64,000 bases of DNA, taken from IMG/VR virus record IMGVR_UViG_3300031555_000648, positions 20,458-84,457 of that record; one strand, written 5' to 3'. Below are positions 49,951-60,650 of the stretch, in pieces (position 1 is the first letter of the stretch; each line of letters starts with the position of its first letter). This stretch comes from a virus. Taxonomy: Duplodnaviria > Caudoviricetes. A program made the position numbers and the translations under genes. The notes under the pieces were generated by a model, which saw only the letters and a list, made by a program, of their open reading frames with translations, ran no database searches and was not told the DNA's origin.

Positions 49951-50421
49951 TTATTTATTTGAGTGTTTTCGATTAGCATAACCTCTGGTAAACATAGGCT
50001 TGCTTGATGTAGGACTTCCATAAACTCTGTTTCGGTAGTCATTGATTATTGGGTTATTTTGCTTCCTGCATAAGTGGATAACTCTCTGGCACATTTTAAT
50101 ATCAAACATACCTATGTGGCAGTCATCAGTGTGTATTCTCAACATATCTGCTAACCACCGATATGCTTCTTTTCTGCTCATAAGACCACTCTTCCAAATG
50201 GGGTCAAACTGCTTATGTGCTTCCATCTTAAGAGTTCTCAATCTCTCATTAGCAAGTCTGCCTAAAGGAATTTCAGTTCCTTTGTGACACCCTACATAAG
50301 AGTTACATTTTGGGTAATTACTACACACCCACACTTTACCCCAATCTTTACTCTTATTGTTGTGGTAGATAAAACTTGCGTCTTTTAAATGCACTTCTGC
50401 TCCGCAATATGGACACTTCAT
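49951..50421 (-). CDS. DUF3268-type zinc-finger protein with C-terminal MFTRGY
   Basis: CPYCG...C..YPKCNSYVGCH...PLGRLA...AH..FDPIW. Confidence 0.75.
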   Translation of the reverse strand: MKCPYCGAEVHLKDASFIYHNNKSKDWGKVWVCSNYPKCNSYVGCHKGTEIPLGRLANERLRTLKMEAHKQFDPIWKSGLMSRKEAYRWLADMLRIHTDDCHIGMFDIKMCQRVIHLCRKQNNPIINDYRNRVYGSPTSSKPMFTRGYANRKHSNK

Positions 50422-51881
50422 TACTTAGTCACCTCACTTGTACCAATATGGTCTGACCAGATACACCTGTCTGGCTCTTTGTCAAAACGCTGTCTCATGT
50501 AACGTGGGTGTCTCATTTTACCACTGTCTCTAAAGAGTTCATTGGCTTTTACTTCGACAACAGTTCCGACCATCTTCTCACGATTGCGTGTAAAGTATTC
50601 TCTGGTATCATCATCAAAACCTGCACACTCACACACCTCCATTAAATGGAGACCATCACAAGTAGAGTGAATAACACCCCTCTTATTCTTTGGCATAGCT
50701 TGGTATTCTTCATCAGTAATGAAAACACCTAACAGCAGATTTCCGACTTGGTTATGGTAGTAGAACTTAGTAACAGGCTCATATCTCTTATCACCATAGA
50801 AATTACCCATGACTCTCTTATCTGTTTCTTTCTCTACCCAGAACCCCCACTTGCGTACATCTTTTCCTGTGTACTCTTTGGTAGGCTCATCAAAACCAAG
50901 GACAATCATATCTCTGGTCAAGAACTTCTTAATCTTGCTGTACTCCCAACCACGCTTGTGCAGGTATTTACCAGACTTAGGTTTTACGATAAGACCCTCA
51001 CCACCTAAAGCTACAATGAGTTCATAATAACCTCTTGGAGTCAAGGTCTGGTCTTTGGACTTGTAACAAGCATACAGGTGTGGATAGGTGTCTGCATTGT
51101 CCAATAACTCATCAAAGAATTGGTCAATATACATTTCATTTCCAAGTCTCTTCATGACTTCATCATACACATTTGCGTCAATGGTCTTTCCACAGTCAAA
51201 GTACTCTACTTCTTTAATATAAGGACTGTTTGCTTCTTCCACTGCTAAACGTAGGTACTCCTTACGTCTTTCAAGTGGCAGTTTTCTAAGGTCAATACCT
51301 TTGTAGAAGAGAATATCAAACGCATGGAATGAAATAAACCCTTTCTCAATCTGTCGGTCAACAGCTTTATCCCACAAGCAGTTCAAGGTACTTGATACTT
51401 CTTTGAATGGAAGACCATCAATGAACATTTCTCCGTCAAGAATTGTGCCACCTAACTCTGGTTGGTCAAGTTCTCTTAAATGTGGTAAGCTGTCAGTGTT
51501 CTCAACATAGAACCCTGTCTTCTTGCTTATTCTTCTACTGAACACTCTACAGAAACCGACTTCATCATTGAACTCTCCGTCTTCATCAACTGTCTTCTGA
51601 CTTAAGAAATATACAAGTGCTCTTGTGCCATCAAACTTCTCTTCAATGTAATATGCAGGGTCTCTCAACTTTTCGTCCTGCTGTTCTTCGGTCTCTAACT
51701 CTTTAGCAGTCATAGGTTCATAACCTCTGATACCTGCCATCTTAAATGCTTCTGGACAATCCCATAACTCACTTGGGAACATTTCATCAATCACTATGTC
51801 CTCATCTGTCTGCAAATCAGTACAATGAAATTTATTGTCTGCTCCACTTCTATGAAGTGTCTGTAAATCTAAGGCTGACAT
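50421..51881 (-). CDS. lig: ATP-dependent DNA ligase
   Basis: EEKFDGTR adenylation motif, ILDGEM, FDIL, GEGLIVK, KIK, OB-domain LRHP-like MRHPRY. Confidence 0.9.
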   Translation of the reverse strand: MSALDLQTLHRSGADNKFHCTDLQTDEDIVIDEMFPSELWDCPEAFKMAGIRGYEPMTAKELETEEQQDEKLRDPAYYIEEKFDGTRALVYFLSQKTVDEDGEFNDEVGFCRVFSRRISKKTGFYVENTDSLPHLRELDQPELGGTILDGEMFIDGLPFKEVSSTLNCLWDKAVDRQIEKGFISFHAFDILFYKGIDLRKLPLERRKEYLRLAVEEANSPYIKEVEYFDCGKTIDANVYDEVMKRLGNEMYIDQFFDELLDNADTYPHLYACYKSKDQTLTPRGYYELIVALGGEGLIVKPKSGKYLHKRGWEYSKIKKFLTRDMIVLGFDEPTKEYTGKDVRKWGFWVEKETDKRVMGNFYGDKRYEPVTKFYYHNQVGNLLLGVFITDEEYQAMPKNKRGVIHSTCDGLHLMEVCECAGFDDDTREYFTRNREKMVGTVVEVKANELFRDSGKMRHPRYMRQRFDKEPDRCIWSDHIGTSEVTK

Positions 51882-58105: not shown

Positions 58106-59758
58106 TTACTTCTCAATATTCAAAGCGTCCACAAGACTGTCAATTACCACTCTAATGTCACTAGCACCTGTTCCGATTGCACTGTATGTGTTGATAACTT
58201 CTACAATTCTCTCGGAGAAGCCTGTGATAAGGTTCTTTCTGTAGTCATCTGTATTGATGATTGCAAAATTGTTGCCAAGCAGGTTGTTGACATACACTTT
58301 CTTTACAACACCTCTCTTGATAAGGTCATTCACATTGTCATCACAGGAATAACCCCAACCTCTTGTAAATGTGAAAGAGTTACCATTGGAAGAGTAACAA
58401 TCATTATCAGAAAGAATAATGAGGTTAGTGTACTGTGTACCACTTCTCTTGATTTCAGCTAATGCTACATCAAGATTTGTGCAACCACCCACATTCTGAC
58501 GCATAATCTCTCTCATAATGTCCATAGTAGTGGACTTAGTAGAAATATTATGCACCATGGTACATCTGTTTGCAAACACATACACATCTGCAATGCCTTT
58601 CTTGAAGCAGATAGCACCTAACATACAAGCAACTTCATAGGCTGTCACTGCTGACATAGAAGAGATATTGTGCTTCATAGAACCACTAAGGTCTACTAAA
58701 ACTGCACTGTAGCCTACAATGTCCTGTAAGTTGTCAATAGATAAATCTAATGCTTCAACTAAAGCGTCAAGAACTCTTCTCTTACCCATTGAATTAGGTA
58801 ACTTATCAACCTCTTTGTATGCACTGTAAAATCTGAATGGTAACAGTCTGGACTTCTGTACCTCTTTCTTGTCGGTCAGCTTTGCAACAATACTGTCCAC
58901 AGCGTTCTTATCACTAAAGAGACCCTGCTTATCAAGTGCTACAAGGTTCTTCACAATAGCCATTACTGTAGAAGTGTCAATACTCTTCACCACGTCTTTC
59001 TTTGTGGTCTTAGAGTTCTTGTTATTGACCTTGGCAATCTCACTCTGAACTTGTGCAGTGTCAGCACCCATCTTCACTCTTCCCTCAATAATATCTTTGT
59101 AGAAATCTCTTCCTACTCTGGACTTTCTTGGGTCTGGGTGTAACAGCTTGATTGCGTCTGCCATGGACACCTGCTTGCTCTCACCAAGTGCTTTAGATAA
59201 CTGATACTCATTAAAGGACTCTAACTTGCCCTTTAAGGTCTTTCTCATCTGCATTGGAAGAGGTGTTTCTCTGTGCTTATTCTTGCCCCTGCCTTTGGCT
59301 GTGAAGCCATACACATTCATCTGTGTAGCAAGAATATCAAGAATATCTTTGCCACGTCTGATAATGTAGTAAGCATAGGACTGTAACTTGTTCTTACCTG
59401 TCTTCTCATCTACGAACTCTTCACCTTTAAATCGGTCATCATTCATACAGGCTGTTAAAACTGCAAGTGGGTACTGTATCATGTTGTACTCACGACCAAG
59501 CTGTGCGATTTTGAGTACATACTCAATATCATCATCATGCACCTGCTCAATGGTCTTGCACAACTTCTCATAGTCACCTTCTGCTGTTCTCTTCTCATAG
59601 TGAGTACTCTCACCAAACAGAGAACCTAACACTCGGCTAAATAACTGCTCAAGTGCGTCAAGTTTGTGCACAGTAGTACCATGGTGATTAACAGTAGTCT
59701 TTCTGTCCTTGGTAACACTTCTCTGTGCTGTTTTCTTTGTGTTGTTCATTGTTGCCAT
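58106..59758 (-). CDS. Ro60-like TROVE/vWA RNA-binding protein
   Basis: FNEYQLSK...MADAIKLLHP, SRLLPFRFYSAY, ALDLSIDNL...VLVDLSGSM (MIDAS), LIILSDND; start MATMNN after GGAGGT. Confidence 0.88.
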   Translation of the reverse strand: MATMNNTKKTAQRSVTKDRKTTVNHHGTTVHKLDALEQLFSRVLGSLFGESTHYEKRTAEGDYEKLCKTIEQVHDDDIEYVLKIAQLGREYNMIQYPLAVLTACMNDDRFKGEEFVDEKTGKNKLQSYAYYIIRRGKDILDILATQMNVYGFTAKGRGKNKHRETPLPMQMRKTLKGKLESFNEYQLSKALGESKQVSMADAIKLLHPDPRKSRVGRDFYKDIIEGRVKMGADTAQVQSEIAKVNNKNSKTTKKDVVKSIDTSTVMAIVKNLVALDKQGLFSDKNAVDSIVAKLTDKKEVQKSRLLPFRFYSAYKEVDKLPNSMGKRRVLDALVEALDLSIDNLQDIVGYSAVLVDLSGSMKHNISSMSAVTAYEVACMLGAICFKKGIADVYVFANRCTMVHNISTKSTTMDIMREIMRQNVGGCTNLDVALAEIKRSGTQYTNLIILSDNDCYSSNGNSFTFTRGWGYSCDDNVNDLIKRGVVKKVYVNNLLGNNFAIINTDDYRKNLITGFSERIVEVINTYSAIGTGASDIRVVIDSLVDALNIEK

Positions 59759-59799: not shown

Positions 59800-59828
59800 A
59801 AAAAAGGTCAACACTCAATGTGTCAACC
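59800..59828 (-). terminator. intrinsic terminator ending the three-RNA unit
   Basis: GGTTGACAC-ATTGA-GTGTTGACC then TTTTTT. Confidence 0.8.
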
Positions 59829-59845
59829 CAATTATTTCTATCTTC

Positions 59846-60002
59846 AAAGTAGCAGGAAGAAAAGCGTTATTGTTGTGTATCTGTTTTTGACAGTTCCGTA
59901 GACTGTTGCCTTACCATTTGGCTATCTGTCCTATTGGTGGACGGAGTTGGAGTCGAACCAACATAAATGATGTAAACAATAACTACACAATCCTACTACT
60001 TT
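59846..60002 (-). ncRNA. scaffolded RNA A carrying a circularly permuted tRNA-Arg(ACG) (Y-RNA-like candidate)
   Basis: 12-bp outer stem, UUGUGUA/GCUUUUCU loop, 9-bp stem; inside, the order is T arm, acceptor 3' strand plus CCA, acceptor 5' strand, D arm, anticodon arm. Confidence 0.8.
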
Positions 60003-60014
60003 AATTACAGCTTA

Positions 60015-60143
60015 ATTGGGAGAAAAACGATAAAGTCATAAAGGCTCATACAATGAGATTTGAACTCATGTTAATTCCGTAAAAGGGAATTGTCTTAACC
60101 GCTTGACAATATATGATGTAGACTTATATCTACACAACCCAAT
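60015..60143 (-). ncRNA. scaffolded RNA B carrying a tRNA-like cloverleaf with UUU anticodon (60045-60116)
   Basis: AUUGGG/CCCAAU stem, UUGUGUA/GUUUUUCU loop, inner stem, full cloverleaf with a tRNA-Glu-like body. Confidence 0.8.
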
Positions 60144-60156
60144 ATTATTTTCGTCA

Positions 60157-60285
60157 GCTTACAGAGAAAAGTGGTAAAGAGATTGACTTATCACAACAGG
60201 ACTCGAACCTGCAACACTTTGTTTAACGGACAAATGCTCGACCATTGAGCTATATGATGTAATCTTTACCTACACAACTGTAAGC
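60157..60285 (-). ncRNA. scaffolded RNA C carrying a tRNA-Asn(GUU)-like cloverleaf (60188-60259)
   Basis: GCUUACAG/CUGUAAGC stem, UUGUGUA/ACUUUUCU loop, GGUAAAGA/UCUUUACC stem, cloverleaf with loop CCGUUAA. Confidence 0.8.
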
Positions 60286-60307: not shown

Positions 60308-60336
60308 ATCATATCACACTTCTTAAAAGCTGTCAA
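60308..60336 (-). promoter_or_regulatory. consensus SigA promoter driving RNAs C, B and A
   Basis: TTGACA-17 bp-TATGAT with extended TG. Confidence 0.85.
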
Positions 60337-60428: not shown

Positions 60429-60500
60429 CTGCCCTTGCTAGATTTGAACTAGCGAATACATGAGTCAAAGTCATGTGCCTTACCACTTGGCGAAAGGGCA
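60429..60500 (-). tRNA. tRNA-Gln(UUG)
   Basis: TGCCCTT/AAGGGCA acceptor, loop CTTTGAC; CCA not encoded. Confidence 0.92.
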
Positions 60501-60567
60501 AAAACTGACTCACAGCACTACCAATGGTACTTCTTAGTTGCCATCAATAGGAACTGTTCATCAGTAA

Positions 60568-60650
60568 GGGGTAATACAGGACTCGAACCTGTAACTTATG
60601 CACATAGTTAATGAGTACTCTCATTGCTTTGCCTGTTAAGCTAATTACCC
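60568..60650 (-). tRNA. tRNA-like RNA with 4-nt anticodon loop (AGUA) and long variable arm
   Basis: Perfect acceptor, D and T arms; anticodon stem ATGAG/CTCAT closes only 4 nt. Confidence 0.7.

What the first reader, a model, noticed from the sequence alone, without database searches (positions are those of the whole stretch)
59890..59962. Circularly permuted tRNA-Arg(ACG) with CCA encoded inside a closed acceptor loop
SEEN (minus strand), in this order: T arm GUUGG-UUCGACU-CCAAC, acceptor 3' strand UCCGUCC, ACCA, a 3-nt linker AUA, acceptor 5' strand GGACAGA (6 of 7 pairs), UA, D arm GCC-AAAUGGUAA-GGC, then anticodon arm ACAGU-CUACGGA-ACUGU. This is a complete cloverleaf opened at the variable loop, and the scaffold stem brings the two free ends together. 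It is the only tRNA-like element in the window with an encoded CCA. KNOWN: permuted tRNA genes occur in some algae and archaea and mature through a circular intermediate; YrlA has the same T-acceptor-D order but lacks the anticodon arm. INFERENCE: it is either a YrlA-like mimic that keeps an anticodon arm, or a bacterial-phage permuted tRNA that could be ligated at the variable loop and opened at the AUA linker.
Basis: partly seen in the sequence, partly recalled or inferred. Interest (0 to 1): 0.85.

Follow-up and report, generated by a model that had tools for sequence, protein, structure and literature searches.

The report
Permuted tRNA mimic on phage Y RNA
A gut phage encodes, just upstream of its Ro60 gene, a conserved small RNA that is a whole tRNA written in rotated order and clamped by a Y-RNA-type stem. 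It is most likely a partner RNA of Ro60, of the YrlA kind but with a full anticodon arm, and not a broken or decoding tRNA.

Summary
Minus strand 59962-59890 reads T arm, acceptor 3' strand, ACCA, AUA, acceptor 5' strand, D arm, anticodon arm (ACG).

It is not a deletion remnant. The same rotated order sits directly upstream of the Ro60 gene in 18 related metagenomic phage contigs, and compensatory changes occur in every arm. After re-permutation, ARAGORN calls a tRNA in 16 of 16 copies.

The element is the core of a 157-nt unit (59846-60002). This unit is closed by a conserved two-stem "handle", which is shared with two neighbouring units that hold normal-order tRNAs. One promoter and one terminator bracket all three units.

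Best reading: a YrlA-class Y RNA, that is, a Ro60 partner and tRNA mimic. It is a new variant because the handle leaves the variable-loop position and a complete anticodon arm is kept.

The encoded CCA is only partly conserved (11 of 16 distinct copies). It fits the footprint of a dimeric-tRNA origin and could also mark an RNase P-opened form.

Among near-identical relatives the anticodon triplet is the only stem or short-loop site that varies (UUU, UGU, GCU, GUU, UGA, ACG). This suggests the anticodon is read by something, possibly anticodon nucleases.

I found no support for ligation into a decoding tRNA. This scan has noted similar Ro60-partner RNAs in other phages before.

The parts
59846..60002 (-). 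Whole unit C: the handle plus the permuted tRNA module (the candidate Y RNA).
   Evidence: RNAfold MFE, z = -4.09. CM R1 scores 152 bits here and 150-178 bits in relatives.
59991..60002 (-). Outer handle stem, 5' strand. It pairs with 59846-59857.
   Evidence: helix 1, 8 of 10 pairs covary.
59984..59990 (-). Conserved 5' internal-loop motif UUGUGUA of the handle. Putative Ro60-binding module.
   Evidence: Near-invariant in units A, B, C and D of all relatives, and kept (UUGUAUA, AUGUAUA, UUGUACA) beside Ro60 genes of only 46-62% identity. Binding itself is inferred.
59975..59983 (-). Inner handle stem, 5' strand. It pairs with 59866-59874.
   Evidence: helix 2, 100% paired, 5 of 8 pairs covary.
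59963..59974 (-). Linker UACAUCAUUUAU. Its AUC (59971-59969) pairs with GAU (59881-59879). Its last U takes the place of U48, opposite A15.
   Evidence: UACAUCA is invariant in all units. In units A and B the same letters form the tRNA acceptor 5' strand.
59946..59962 (-). T arm GUUGG-UUCGACU-CCAAC.
   Evidence: helix 4, 100% paired, 3 of 5 pairs covary.
59925..59945 (-). Closed acceptor arm: 3' strand UCCGUCC, loop ACCAAUA (discriminator A, CCA, 3-nt spacer), 5' strand GGACAGA.
   Evidence: helix 5, 6 of 7 pairs covary. NCCA is present in 11 of 16 distinct copies.
59908..59922 (-). D arm GCC-AAAUGGUAA-GGC, with A14, A15, G18 and G19. It is preceded by U8-A9 (59924-59923).
   Evidence: helix 6.
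59890..59906 (-). Anticodon arm ACAGU-CUACGGA-ACUGU. The anticodon ACG is at 59899-59897.
   Evidence: helix 7, all 5 pairs covary. The triplet differs among relatives.
59858..59889 (-). 3' linker CAAAAACAGAUACAC, inner stem 3' strand AACAAUAAC, and the conserved 3' internal-loop motif GCUUUUCU (59865-59858).
   Evidence: GNUUUUCU is conserved in the units of all relatives.
58106..59758 (-). Ro60 gene. The ATG at 59758 follows a GGAGG; the TTG at 59818 listed by the ORF tool lies inside the terminator hairpin.
   Evidence: Pfam TROVE 4.4e-14 and vWA_Ro60 4.2e-07. Orthologues of 46-81% identity in 25 loci.
59805..59829 (-). Intrinsic terminator-like hairpin plus U run, closing the three-unit transcription unit.
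60308..60336 (-). Sigma-70-type promoter TTGACA-17-TATGAT (11 of 12 matches, extended -10 TG) in front of unit A.
60157..60285 (-). Unit A: the same handle around a normal-order tRNA-Asn(GUU).
   Evidence: weak Deinococcus_Y_RNA match, 30 bits.
60015..60143 (-). Unit B: the same handle around a normal-order tRNA with a UUU anticodon.

Best explanation
Unit C (59846-60002, minus strand) is a phage Y RNA of the YrlA kind: a non-coding partner RNA of the Ro60 protein encoded immediately downstream.

Its 5' and 3' ends pair into a conserved two-stem handle. The internal loops are UUGUGUA and GCUUUUCU. This handle is the likely Ro60 docking site (inferred).

The handle carries a complete tRNA fold in rotated order: T arm, acceptor closed by a loop, D arm, anticodon arm. 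It enters the tRNA core where a class II tRNA has its long variable arm.

The RNA therefore presents a full L-shaped tRNA look-alike, with elbow and anticodon loop. It has no free acceptor end, so as transcribed it cannot be charged.

The NCCA-plus-spacer acceptor loop and the order of the parts are what a one-tRNA-long window cut out of a dimeric tRNA transcript would give. This fits the published dimeric-tRNA origin model for YrlA.

Likely function (inferred, about 35% for the specific version): displayed on Ro60, the mimic docks or baits proteins that read tRNA shape and anticodon. Examples are host anticodon nucleases and other tRNA-targeting defence enzymes.

Possible extra step (inferred, about 30%): host RNase P nicks the 7-bp acceptor at G+1 and exonucleases trim back to CCA, as shown for M. 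smegmatis YrlA. That would give a two-piece RNA held together by the handle.
For: Shown:
- The fold is exact in sequence. The MFE recovers it, z = -4.09.
- 16 of 16 re-permuted copies are called tRNA by ARAGORN.
- 95.2% of pair cells are paired against 69.1% in shuffles (0 of 500 reach it) and 34-45% when slid. 28 of 41 pairs covary, including all 5 anticodon-stem pairs and 6 of 7 acceptor pairs (independent regex parsing).
- The next gene is Ro60. The unit lies directly upstream on the same strand in 19 contigs.
- The handle motifs travel with Ro60 down to 46% protein identity, whatever the cargo.
- In the whole 84-kb genome the model hits only this operon, plus one tandem-tRNA junction.
- There are weak full-length matches to Rfam YrlA (19.5 bits) and, for unit A, to Deinococcus Y RNA (30 bits).
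- Purifying selection: in six relatives whose Ro60 genes differ at 7% of columns, 0 of 105 stem or short-loop sites outside the anticodon vary. Two of the 3 anticodon positions vary (Fisher p = 5e-4).

From the literature:
- YrlA is a T-acceptor(closed)-D tRNA mimic beside Ro60. M. smegmatis YrlA, with a 7-bp acceptor, is cut by RNase P and receives CCA (PMC4201824).
- The dimeric-tRNA origin model (10.1101/312249).
- A phage Ro60 binds Y-like RNAs encoded upstream of its gene (PMC12135203).
- A phage Ro60-like gene counters a defence system, and the tRNA genes beside it are suspected to be Y RNAs (PMC11482910).
- The PARIS nuclease AriB targets exactly tRNA-Lys(UUU), Thr(UGU) and Asn(GUU) and reads U36-A-A-U (PMC12409363). 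Relatives of unit C carry UUU, UGU or GUU followed by AAU.
Against: - No transcript, binding or processing data.
- The unit scores far below Rfam's YrlA threshold (19.5 against 69 bits).
- It lacks the GNCGAAN0-1G / CGAA motif that marks known Ro60-binding modules, so Ro60 binding rests on gene linkage alone.
- The covariation alignment was fitted to the structure. Much of the covariation separates two paralogous unit classes and only about five lineages.
- The window's own anticodon arm (ACG, G37, no UAAU) does not match the AriB-type pattern.
- The host and its defence systems are unknown.
- A 3-nt spacer between CCA and G+1 may be too tight for RNase P.
Confidence: 0.75

Rival explanations
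1. It is a true permuted or split tRNA gene. The precursor is opened at the acceptor loop (RNase P plus 3' trimming to the encoded CCA). It is then used in translation, either as a two-piece tRNA held by the handle or after ligation of its ends in the variable region. It would decode CGN Arg in this phage and other codons in relatives.
For: - The cloverleaf is complete, with a 7-bp acceptor, a discriminator and an encoded CCA. ARAGORN accepts every re-permuted copy.
- The anticodon loop frame CU-NNN-RA is conserved while the triplet changes, as if it were read.
- It lies in a phage tRNA cluster.
- There is precedent for RNase P opening and CCA addition in M. smegmatis YrlA (PMC4201824). Permuted tRNA genes exist in algae and archaea (10.1101/312249, discussion).
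Against: - CCA is lost in 5 of 16 distinct copies, which have GCCG, GCGUU or GCAUU loops.
- The sister unit D has the same topology with a plain closed loop and no CCA.
- One body carries UUU, UGU or GCU anticodons with no change elsewhere. This is hard to reconcile with correct charging.
- The phage has no RtcB, no RNA ligase above threshold and no CCA-adding enzyme.
- The ends are held by about 20 bp of a handle shared with non-tRNA cargo, not by a bulge-helix-bulge motif. Bacteria are not known to have the splicing endonuclease (established knowledge).
- The linkers of 6 and 8 nt plus a large arm in the variable region are atypical.
Confidence: 0.07
2. It is a conserved structured RNA that works without Ro60. 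For example, it could be a processing or stabilising scaffold of the phage tRNA operon, or the partner of another protein. Its place next to Ro60 would then be only linkage within the tRNA cluster.
For: - Units A and B hold ordinary-looking tRNAs that RNase P and 3' nucleases could simply release.
- The handle lacks the published CGAA Ro60-binding motif (PMC12135203).
- No binding evidence exists.
Against: - Handle-bearing units lie 0-1.5 kb upstream of Ro60, on its strand, in every contig recovered through the Ro60 protein. This holds down to 46% identity and with unrelated cargo.
- They occur nowhere else in the 84-kb genome.
- A closed acceptor and rotated order cannot yield a normal tRNA by processing.
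- The stem-loop-stem handle and the tRNA-like cargo match the general Y RNA plan (PMC4201824).
Confidence: 0.13
3. It is a dead remnant of two tandem tRNA genes: the 3' half of one and the 5' half of the next, left by deletions.
For: - The order of the parts and the NCCA-spacer junction are those of a tandem tRNA junction. Relatives do carry tandem tRNAs with encoded CCA and 4-5-nt spacers (L160 1130-1378).
- The CM cross-hits a real tandem junction in the window (60453-60594).
Against: - The two acceptor strands are complementary and covary.
- 0 of 105 sites vary where the neighbouring protein gene varies at 7%.
- The arrangement is kept in 19 contigs and in a paralogous unit D.
- No relative has two complete tRNAs at this place.
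Confidence: 0.03

Closest known systems
YrlA (Y RNA-like A; Rfam RF02553; Chen et al. 2014, PMC4201824; structure in Wang et al. 2018, 10.1101/312249)
   Same: It is encoded beside Ro60 and on the same strand. The ends pair into a long stem. The effector module has the order T arm, closed acceptor, U8-N9, D arm. The tRNA tertiary nucleotides are kept (U8, A14, A15:U48, G18-G19, T loop UUCGA). It has been described as resembling a circularly permuted tRNA.
   Different: In YrlA the Y stem continues the anticodon stem and there is no anticodon loop. Here the handle leaves the variable-arm position and a complete 5-bp/7-nt anticodon arm is present. The acceptor loop holds NCCA. The handle has UUGUGUA / GCUUUUCU in place of GNCGAAN0-1G. 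The Rfam score is 19.5 bits against a threshold of 69.
Mycobacterium smegmatis YrlA (PMC4201824)
   Same: It has a 7-bp acceptor stem. That RNA is cleaved by RNase P in the acceptor loop and carries CCA in vivo. This is the same end state that unit C's encoded ACCA-AUA-G+1 would give.
   Different: In M. smegmatis the CCA is added after nibbling, not encoded. It has no anticodon arm. Cleavage of unit C is untested.
Circularly permuted tRNA genes of Cyanidioschyzon merolae and other algae and of an archaeon (Soma et al. 2007 and others, as cited in 10.1101/312249)
   Same: The 3' half is encoded upstream of the 5' half. The acceptor is initially a closed loop containing the future ends.
   Different: Those precursors are circularised by the splicing endonuclease and ligase at a bulge-helix-bulge motif and become ordinary decoding tRNAs. 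Here there is no such motif, no ligase in the phage, CCA is only partly conserved, and the anticodon changes without any change in the body.
Thermus phage phiLo Ro60 with Yrl1/Yrl2 (PMC12135203)
   Same: A phage-encoded Ro60 with Y-like RNAs encoded just upstream. Binding is shown in vitro, and the complex engages host PNPase.
   Different: The phiLo RNAs are simple stem-bulge-stem RNAs with a CGAA motif. The paper gives them no tRNA cargo.
Deinococcus radiodurans Yrn1 (Rfam RF01053; PMC4201824)
   Same: A Y RNA with a T-arm-like hairpin and a possible anticodon-like arm with a 5-bp stem. Unit A gives a weak full-length match to this model (30 bits).
   Different: The Yrn1 'anticodon loop' has 6 nt and the D arm is doubtful. 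The order of the arms differs.

Membership tests
YrlA-type Y RNA (Rfam RF02553) | Encoded within a few kb of a Ro60/Rsr (TROVE) gene, on the same strand. | tested here: met
   The Ro60 gene starts 88 nt downstream of the unit, on the same strand. The same holds in 18 related contigs.
YrlA-type Y RNA (Rfam RF02553) | tRNA-like module in the order T arm, closed acceptor stem, D arm, with conserved elbow nucleotides. | tested here: met
   (the model aligns T, AS and D correctly).
YrlA-type Y RNA (Rfam RF02553) | The 5' and 3' ends pair into a long stem that carries the GNCGAAN0-1G Ro60-binding motif. | tested here: not met
   The long two-part stem is present. The conserved 5' loop, however, is UUGUGUA with no CGAA.
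YrlA-type Y RNA (Rfam RF02553) | The Y stem replaces the anticodon stem-loop, so there is no anticodon loop. | tested here: not met
   A complete anticodon arm is present and covaries. The stem leaves from the variable region.
YrlA-type Y RNA (Rfam RF02553) | Score at or above Rfam's gathering threshold. | tested here: not met
   19.5 bits against 69. No hit at the gathering threshold.
YrlA-type Y RNA (Rfam RF02553) | Bound by Ro60 in vivo or in vitro. | not testable with these tools
   No RNA-protein tool or expression data were available.
Circularly permuted tRNA gene (algal/archaeal type) | The 3' half lies upstream of the 5' half, and all four arms are present. | tested here: met
Circularly permuted tRNA gene (algal/archaeal type) | The termini form a bulge-helix-bulge motif that is cut and ligated into a circular intermediate. 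| tested here: not met
   The predicted closure is a 3-bp helix plus 9-bp and 12-bp stems with 7/8-nt loops. No RtcB and no RNA ligase above cut-off in the phage.
Circularly permuted tRNA gene (algal/archaeal type) | The product is a charged, decoding tRNA of fixed identity. | tested here: inconclusive
   Charging cannot be tested. The anticodon changes on an unchanged body and CCA is lost in 5 of 16 copies, both of which argue against it.
Canonical tRNA (Rfam RF00005 / ARAGORN) | Detected as a tRNA in its native order. | tested here: not met
   ARAGORN does not call it. The only Rfam tRNA matches are 25.0 and 14.9 bits, below the 29-bit threshold, and use half of the element plus flank.

The most novel reading that the evidence does not exclude
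Unit C is opened by host RNase P at G+1 and trimmed to its encoded CCA. The resulting two-piece RNA, held together by the Ro60 handle in place of a variable arm, is aminoacylated and decodes. Closely related phages would re-programme its anticodon (ACG, UUU, UGU, GUU, GCU, UGA) to replace whichever host tRNA is being destroyed. That would make it a split, Ro60-associated tRNA in a bacterial virus.
Probability: 0.06. Interest if true: 0.9.

Novelty: new variant of a known kind. Interest (0 to 1): 0.62.

Why it matters
The function of the tRNA-like domain of bacterial and phage Y RNAs is an open question. This family bears on it in four ways.

1. It is the most tRNA-like Y RNA module I am aware of, with all four arms present.
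2. It is a near-literal footprint of the proposed dimeric-tRNA origin: the discriminator, CCA and spacer serve as the acceptor loop. Sister forms are cut at other points of the cloverleaf.
3. The body is frozen while the anticodon triplet turns over between near-identical phages. This points to a partner that reads the anticodon.
4. The triplets seen in relatives (UUU, UGU, GUU followed by AAU) coincide with the published target set of the PARIS nuclease AriB. That makes a concrete, testable link between phage Ro60 particles and tRNA-targeting immunity.

The phages come from human-gut metagenomes and have no cultured relative.

Tried and rejected
- **Nucleotide search of cultured phages.** It found only generic tRNA similarity. 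A Ro60 tblastn found nothing above 27% identity, so there is no cultured relative and no host assignment.
- **Loose handle pattern on IMG/VR.** It returned chance hits only. A stricter two-gap pattern re-found the same nine contigs plus three chance hits.
- **Profile-based Ro60 search of IMG/VR.** It added nothing beyond the first ten loci. The genome-contig scan gave one 2.8-kb MAG contig.
- **MAFFT alignment A3.** It misaligned the anticodon arm of the window and of L002, so pair counts were made by regex parsing and on a CM-based alignment.
- **RNA repair genes in the phage.** RtcB and the CCA-adding enzyme are absent. The weak RNA_ligase hit is an ATP-dependent DNA ligase.
- **Permuted tmRNA.** Considered and rejected: Rfam gives 8.3 bits against a threshold of 47.
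- **A bulge-helix-bulge splice junction.** Considered and rejected: the fold does not show one.
- **RNAfold of L160 and of unit D.** The MFE did not reproduce the hand-drawn arms for L160 or for the anticodon region of L003 unit D. For those I rely on covariation or mark them as probable only.
- **Not held in the library.** Two reviews: Sim et al. 2020 and Boccitto and Wolin 2019.

Full report
**1. The observation**

- T arm GUUGG-UUCGACU-CCAAC
- acceptor 3' strand UCCGUCC
- ACCA, then AUA
- acceptor 5' strand GGACAGA (six of seven pairs, A5.C68 mismatched)
- U8-A9
- D arm GCC-AAAUGGUAA-GGC
- A26
- anticodon arm ACAGU-CUACGGA-ACUGU

ARAGORN and Rfam call six ordinary tRNAs in the neighbourhood but not this element. 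None of those six encodes CCA. I joined the two halves in the normal order, using two and three flanking bases as a variable loop. ARAGORN then called tRNA-Arg(ACG).

**2. The wider unit**

The element is the interior of a 157-nt unit, 59846-60002. RNAfold was given no constraints and predicted the following (-44.2 kcal/mol, z = -4.09, none of 200 shuffles as stable):
- a 12-bp outer stem
- a 7/8-nt internal loop (UUGUGUA opposite GCUUUUCU)
- a 9-bp inner stem
- a 3-bp AUC/GAU helix
- a junction carrying exactly the T, acceptor, D and anticodon hairpins

T and acceptor abut with no spacer. Acceptor and D are two bases apart, and D and anticodon one base apart, as in tRNA. The closing helix enters between the anticodon arm and the T arm, where class II tRNAs carry their long variable arm. 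A15 and the invariant U just before the T stem can form the Levitt pair.

Two further units have the same handle but hold normal-order tRNAs: A at 60157-60285 and B at 60015-60143. Their acceptor 5' strands are the handle's invariant ACAUCAU. A near-consensus promoter (60336-60308) and a terminator (59829-59805) bracket the three units.

**3. The neighbour**

The gene that follows is a Ro60: Pfam TROVE 4.4e-14 and vWA_Ro60 4.2e-07. It runs 58106-59758, with the ATG after a GGAGG.

The window belongs to an 84-kb IMG/VR phage record that is 98% complete. The record includes a terminase, an SPP1-type portal and a capsid protein. Nearby lies an ORF with a Cell Wall Hydrolase (Hydrolase_2) domain.

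**4. Relatives**

Searching by the Ro60 protein gave 10 IMG/VR contigs, 14 metagenome contigs (several labelled human gut) and one MAG contig.

In 18 of them the same rotated unit lies directly upstream of Ro60. One further contig (L154) holds a copy with an internal deletion.

I parsed 16 distinct copies arm by arm:
- T stem pairs 2 and 3 switch among U-A, A-U and G-C.
- Acceptor pair 1 is G-C in the window and U-A elsewhere. Pair 6 is G-C or A-U. Pair 5 is A.C or A-U.
- The anticodon stem exists in three fully different, fully paired versions.

Most relatives have a second, paralogous rotated unit (D) with other stem sequences and the same architecture. I built a covariance model from unit C and aligned 31 C and D units, 28 of them distinct. 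On that alignment:
- 95.2% of pair cells are standard pairs, against 69.1% in column shuffles (0 of 500 reach it) and 34-45% when partners are slid by 1-3 columns.
- 28 of 41 pairs change on both sides.

Two caveats apply. The alignment is fitted to the model, and the sequences represent only about five lineages plus one ancient duplication.

ARAGORN calls a tRNA in all 16 re-permuted copies. Across the whole phage genome the model hits only the three units and one true tandem-tRNA junction. Chen et al. warned of exactly this kind of false positive (PMC4201824).

**5. What it is**

Published YrlA RNAs are Ro60 partners whose ends form the Ro60-binding stem. Their interior is T arm, closed acceptor stem, D arm, "resembling circularly permuted tRNAs". 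They lack an anticodon loop and a free CCA (PMC4201824; 10.1101/312249).

Unit C shares the gene linkage, the order of arms, the closed acceptor and the terminal stem. The Rfam YrlA model aligns to it end to end, but only at 19.5 bits against a threshold of 69.

It differs in three defining respects:
- The Y stem does not continue the anticodon stem. It leaves the variable region.
- A complete anticodon arm is present.
- The handle lacks the GNCGAA/CGAA motif.

I therefore file it as something that works like a YrlA-type Y RNA, but as a new variant and not as a member of RF02553.

Ro60 binding is inferred from linkage. The handle motifs accompany Ro60 genes down to 46% identity, with tRNA cargo, permuted cargo or unrelated cargo. 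A phage Ro60 has been shown to bind Y-like RNAs encoded upstream of its gene (PMC12135203).

**6. The CCA**

NCCA directly follows the 7-bp acceptor in 11 of 16 distinct copies, with spacers of 3-7 nt. Two copies have GCCG and three have GCGUU or GCAUU. Unit D has plain loops. CCA is thus not required across the family.

Related phages carry tandem tRNAs with encoded CCA and 4-5-nt spacers (L160 1130-1378). This is exactly the configuration from which T-acceptor3'-NCCA-spacer-acceptor5'-D-anticodon could be cut. That fits the dimeric-tRNA origin model for YrlA (10.1101/312249).

In L011 a homologous unit has the order anticodon arm, variable loop, T arm, closed acceptor, D arm. It is cut at position 26/27, and its MFE confirms this. 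L160 and L167 probably match it. With canonical YrlA, cut in the anticodon loop, and units A and B, cut at the acceptor end, one handle therefore carries tRNA folds opened at four different places.

A functional role for the CCA remains possible. M. smegmatis YrlA, which also has a 7-bp acceptor, is cleaved by RNase P in that loop and ends in CCA in vivo (PMC4201824). I give this about 30% for unit C.

**7. The anticodon**

The loop frame C32-U33 ... R37-A38 is conserved, but the triplet is not:
- ACG in the window
- UGA in L002
- UUU in ten distinct copies
- GUU in L008
- GCU in L009 and L155
- UGU in L158 and L159

In a clade of six contigs the Ro60 genes are 95-98.7% identical, with 7% of columns variable. 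There, 0 of 105 other fixed-length sites of unit C vary, while two of the three anticodon positions do. Fisher p is 5e-4 against the rest of the unit and 0.014 against the gene.

So the body is under stronger constraint than the protein gene, and the triplet turns over. Unit B shows the same behaviour.

This argues that something reads the anticodon. Correct charging of one unchanged body with Lys, Thr and Ser anticodons seems unlikely, and the acceptor is closed. I therefore favour a docking or bait role for anticodon-reading proteins.

The PARIS nuclease AriB cleaves tRNA-Lys(UUU), Thr(UGU) and Asn(GUU). It shares a U36-A-A-U signature with them and, in a model, also contacts the D loop (PMC12409363). 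Relatives of unit C carry just these triplets followed by AAU. The window's ACG copy does not. This is a coincidence worth testing, not evidence.

A phage Ro60-like gene has been reported to counter a defence system, with neighbouring "tRNA genes" suspected to be Y RNAs (PMC11482910).

**8. Rivals**

- **A maturing, decoding permuted tRNA (7%).** Several points weaken it: the CCA losses, unit D, the anticodon swaps, and the absence of RtcB, RNA ligase and CCA-adding enzyme in the phage. The closing structure is also a long shared handle, not a splice motif.
- **A Ro60-independent scaffold (13%).** It cannot be excluded without binding data.
- **A dead remnant (3%).** The conservation contradicts it.

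**9. Earlier notes of this scan**

Notes on the same window named the Ro60 gene and the three-unit operon. I checked both. Notes on other phages describe Ro60-partner RNAs with conserved handles, permuted tRNA cargo and anticodon arms whose triplet changes. So the scan has met this kind of RNA before on other DNA. My anticodon analysis was made before I read those notes, and it agrees with them.

**10. Verdict**

The element is real, conserved and structured. It is best read as a new variant of the YrlA-type Ro60 partner RNA, with a complete permuted tRNA including an anticodon arm. It is not a decoding permuted tRNA. Function and processing remain inferred.

Noticed in passing
window 60157-60285 and 60015-60143 (minus strand): Units A and B are normal-order tRNAs (Asn GUU; UUU anticodon) enclosed by the same handle. 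Their acceptor 5' strands are the handle's invariant ACAUCAU. In relatives the unit B triplet differs widely on a similar body (UCC, GCA, AAC, UCA, GUA, ACA, GUU, GUC).
   Followed up: partly
L003 630-784, L005 2968-3121, L007 3044-3199 and 11 others: There is a second permuted-tRNA unit ('D', inner stem CAUUUAGC/GCUAAAUG). It has a closed acceptor without CCA and an almost fixed UGA anticodon. It is present in most relatives but absent from the window and from L002.
   Followed up: yes
L011 3672-3815; probably L160 1677-1803 and L167 285-411: A homologous handle unit has the order anticodon arm (GUU), variable loop, T arm, closed acceptor, D arm. The tRNA fold is opened at position 26/27, not in the variable loop.
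   Followed up: partly
L160 1816-1905; L166 1540-1700 and 1720-1891: The same handle carries short or AT-rich cargo that is not tRNA-like (YrlB-like units), beside Ro60 genes of 46-62% identity.
   Followed up: no
L154 100-257: One metagenome contig has unit C with a deletion between two CUUUU repeats. The deletion removes the 3' half of the anticodon arm and the inner handle strand. It is either a natural decay variant or an assembly artefact.
   Followed up: no
window 60568-60650 (minus strand): ARAGORN reports a tRNA of undetermined type with a two-letter 'anticodon' (gt). Rfam tRNA gives it 48.9 bits. It is an odd tRNA-like gene in the cluster.
   Followed up: no
L160 1130-1378: Tandem tRNA-Phe, -Tyr and -Arg(ACG) genes with encoded CCA and 4-5-nt spacers. 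This is the configuration from which a rotated unit with an NCCA-spacer acceptor loop could arise.
   Followed up: no
window 60453-60594 (minus strand): The unit C covariance model gives a weak hit (22.5 bits) on the junction between the odd tRNA and tRNA-Gln. This is the tandem-tRNA false positive predicted in the YrlA literature.
   Followed up: yes
window 50421-51881 and 49951-50421 (minus strand): An ATP-dependent DNA ligase (PF01068) sits next to a DUF3268 zinc-finger protein, upstream of the terminase, portal and capsid genes.
   Followed up: partly
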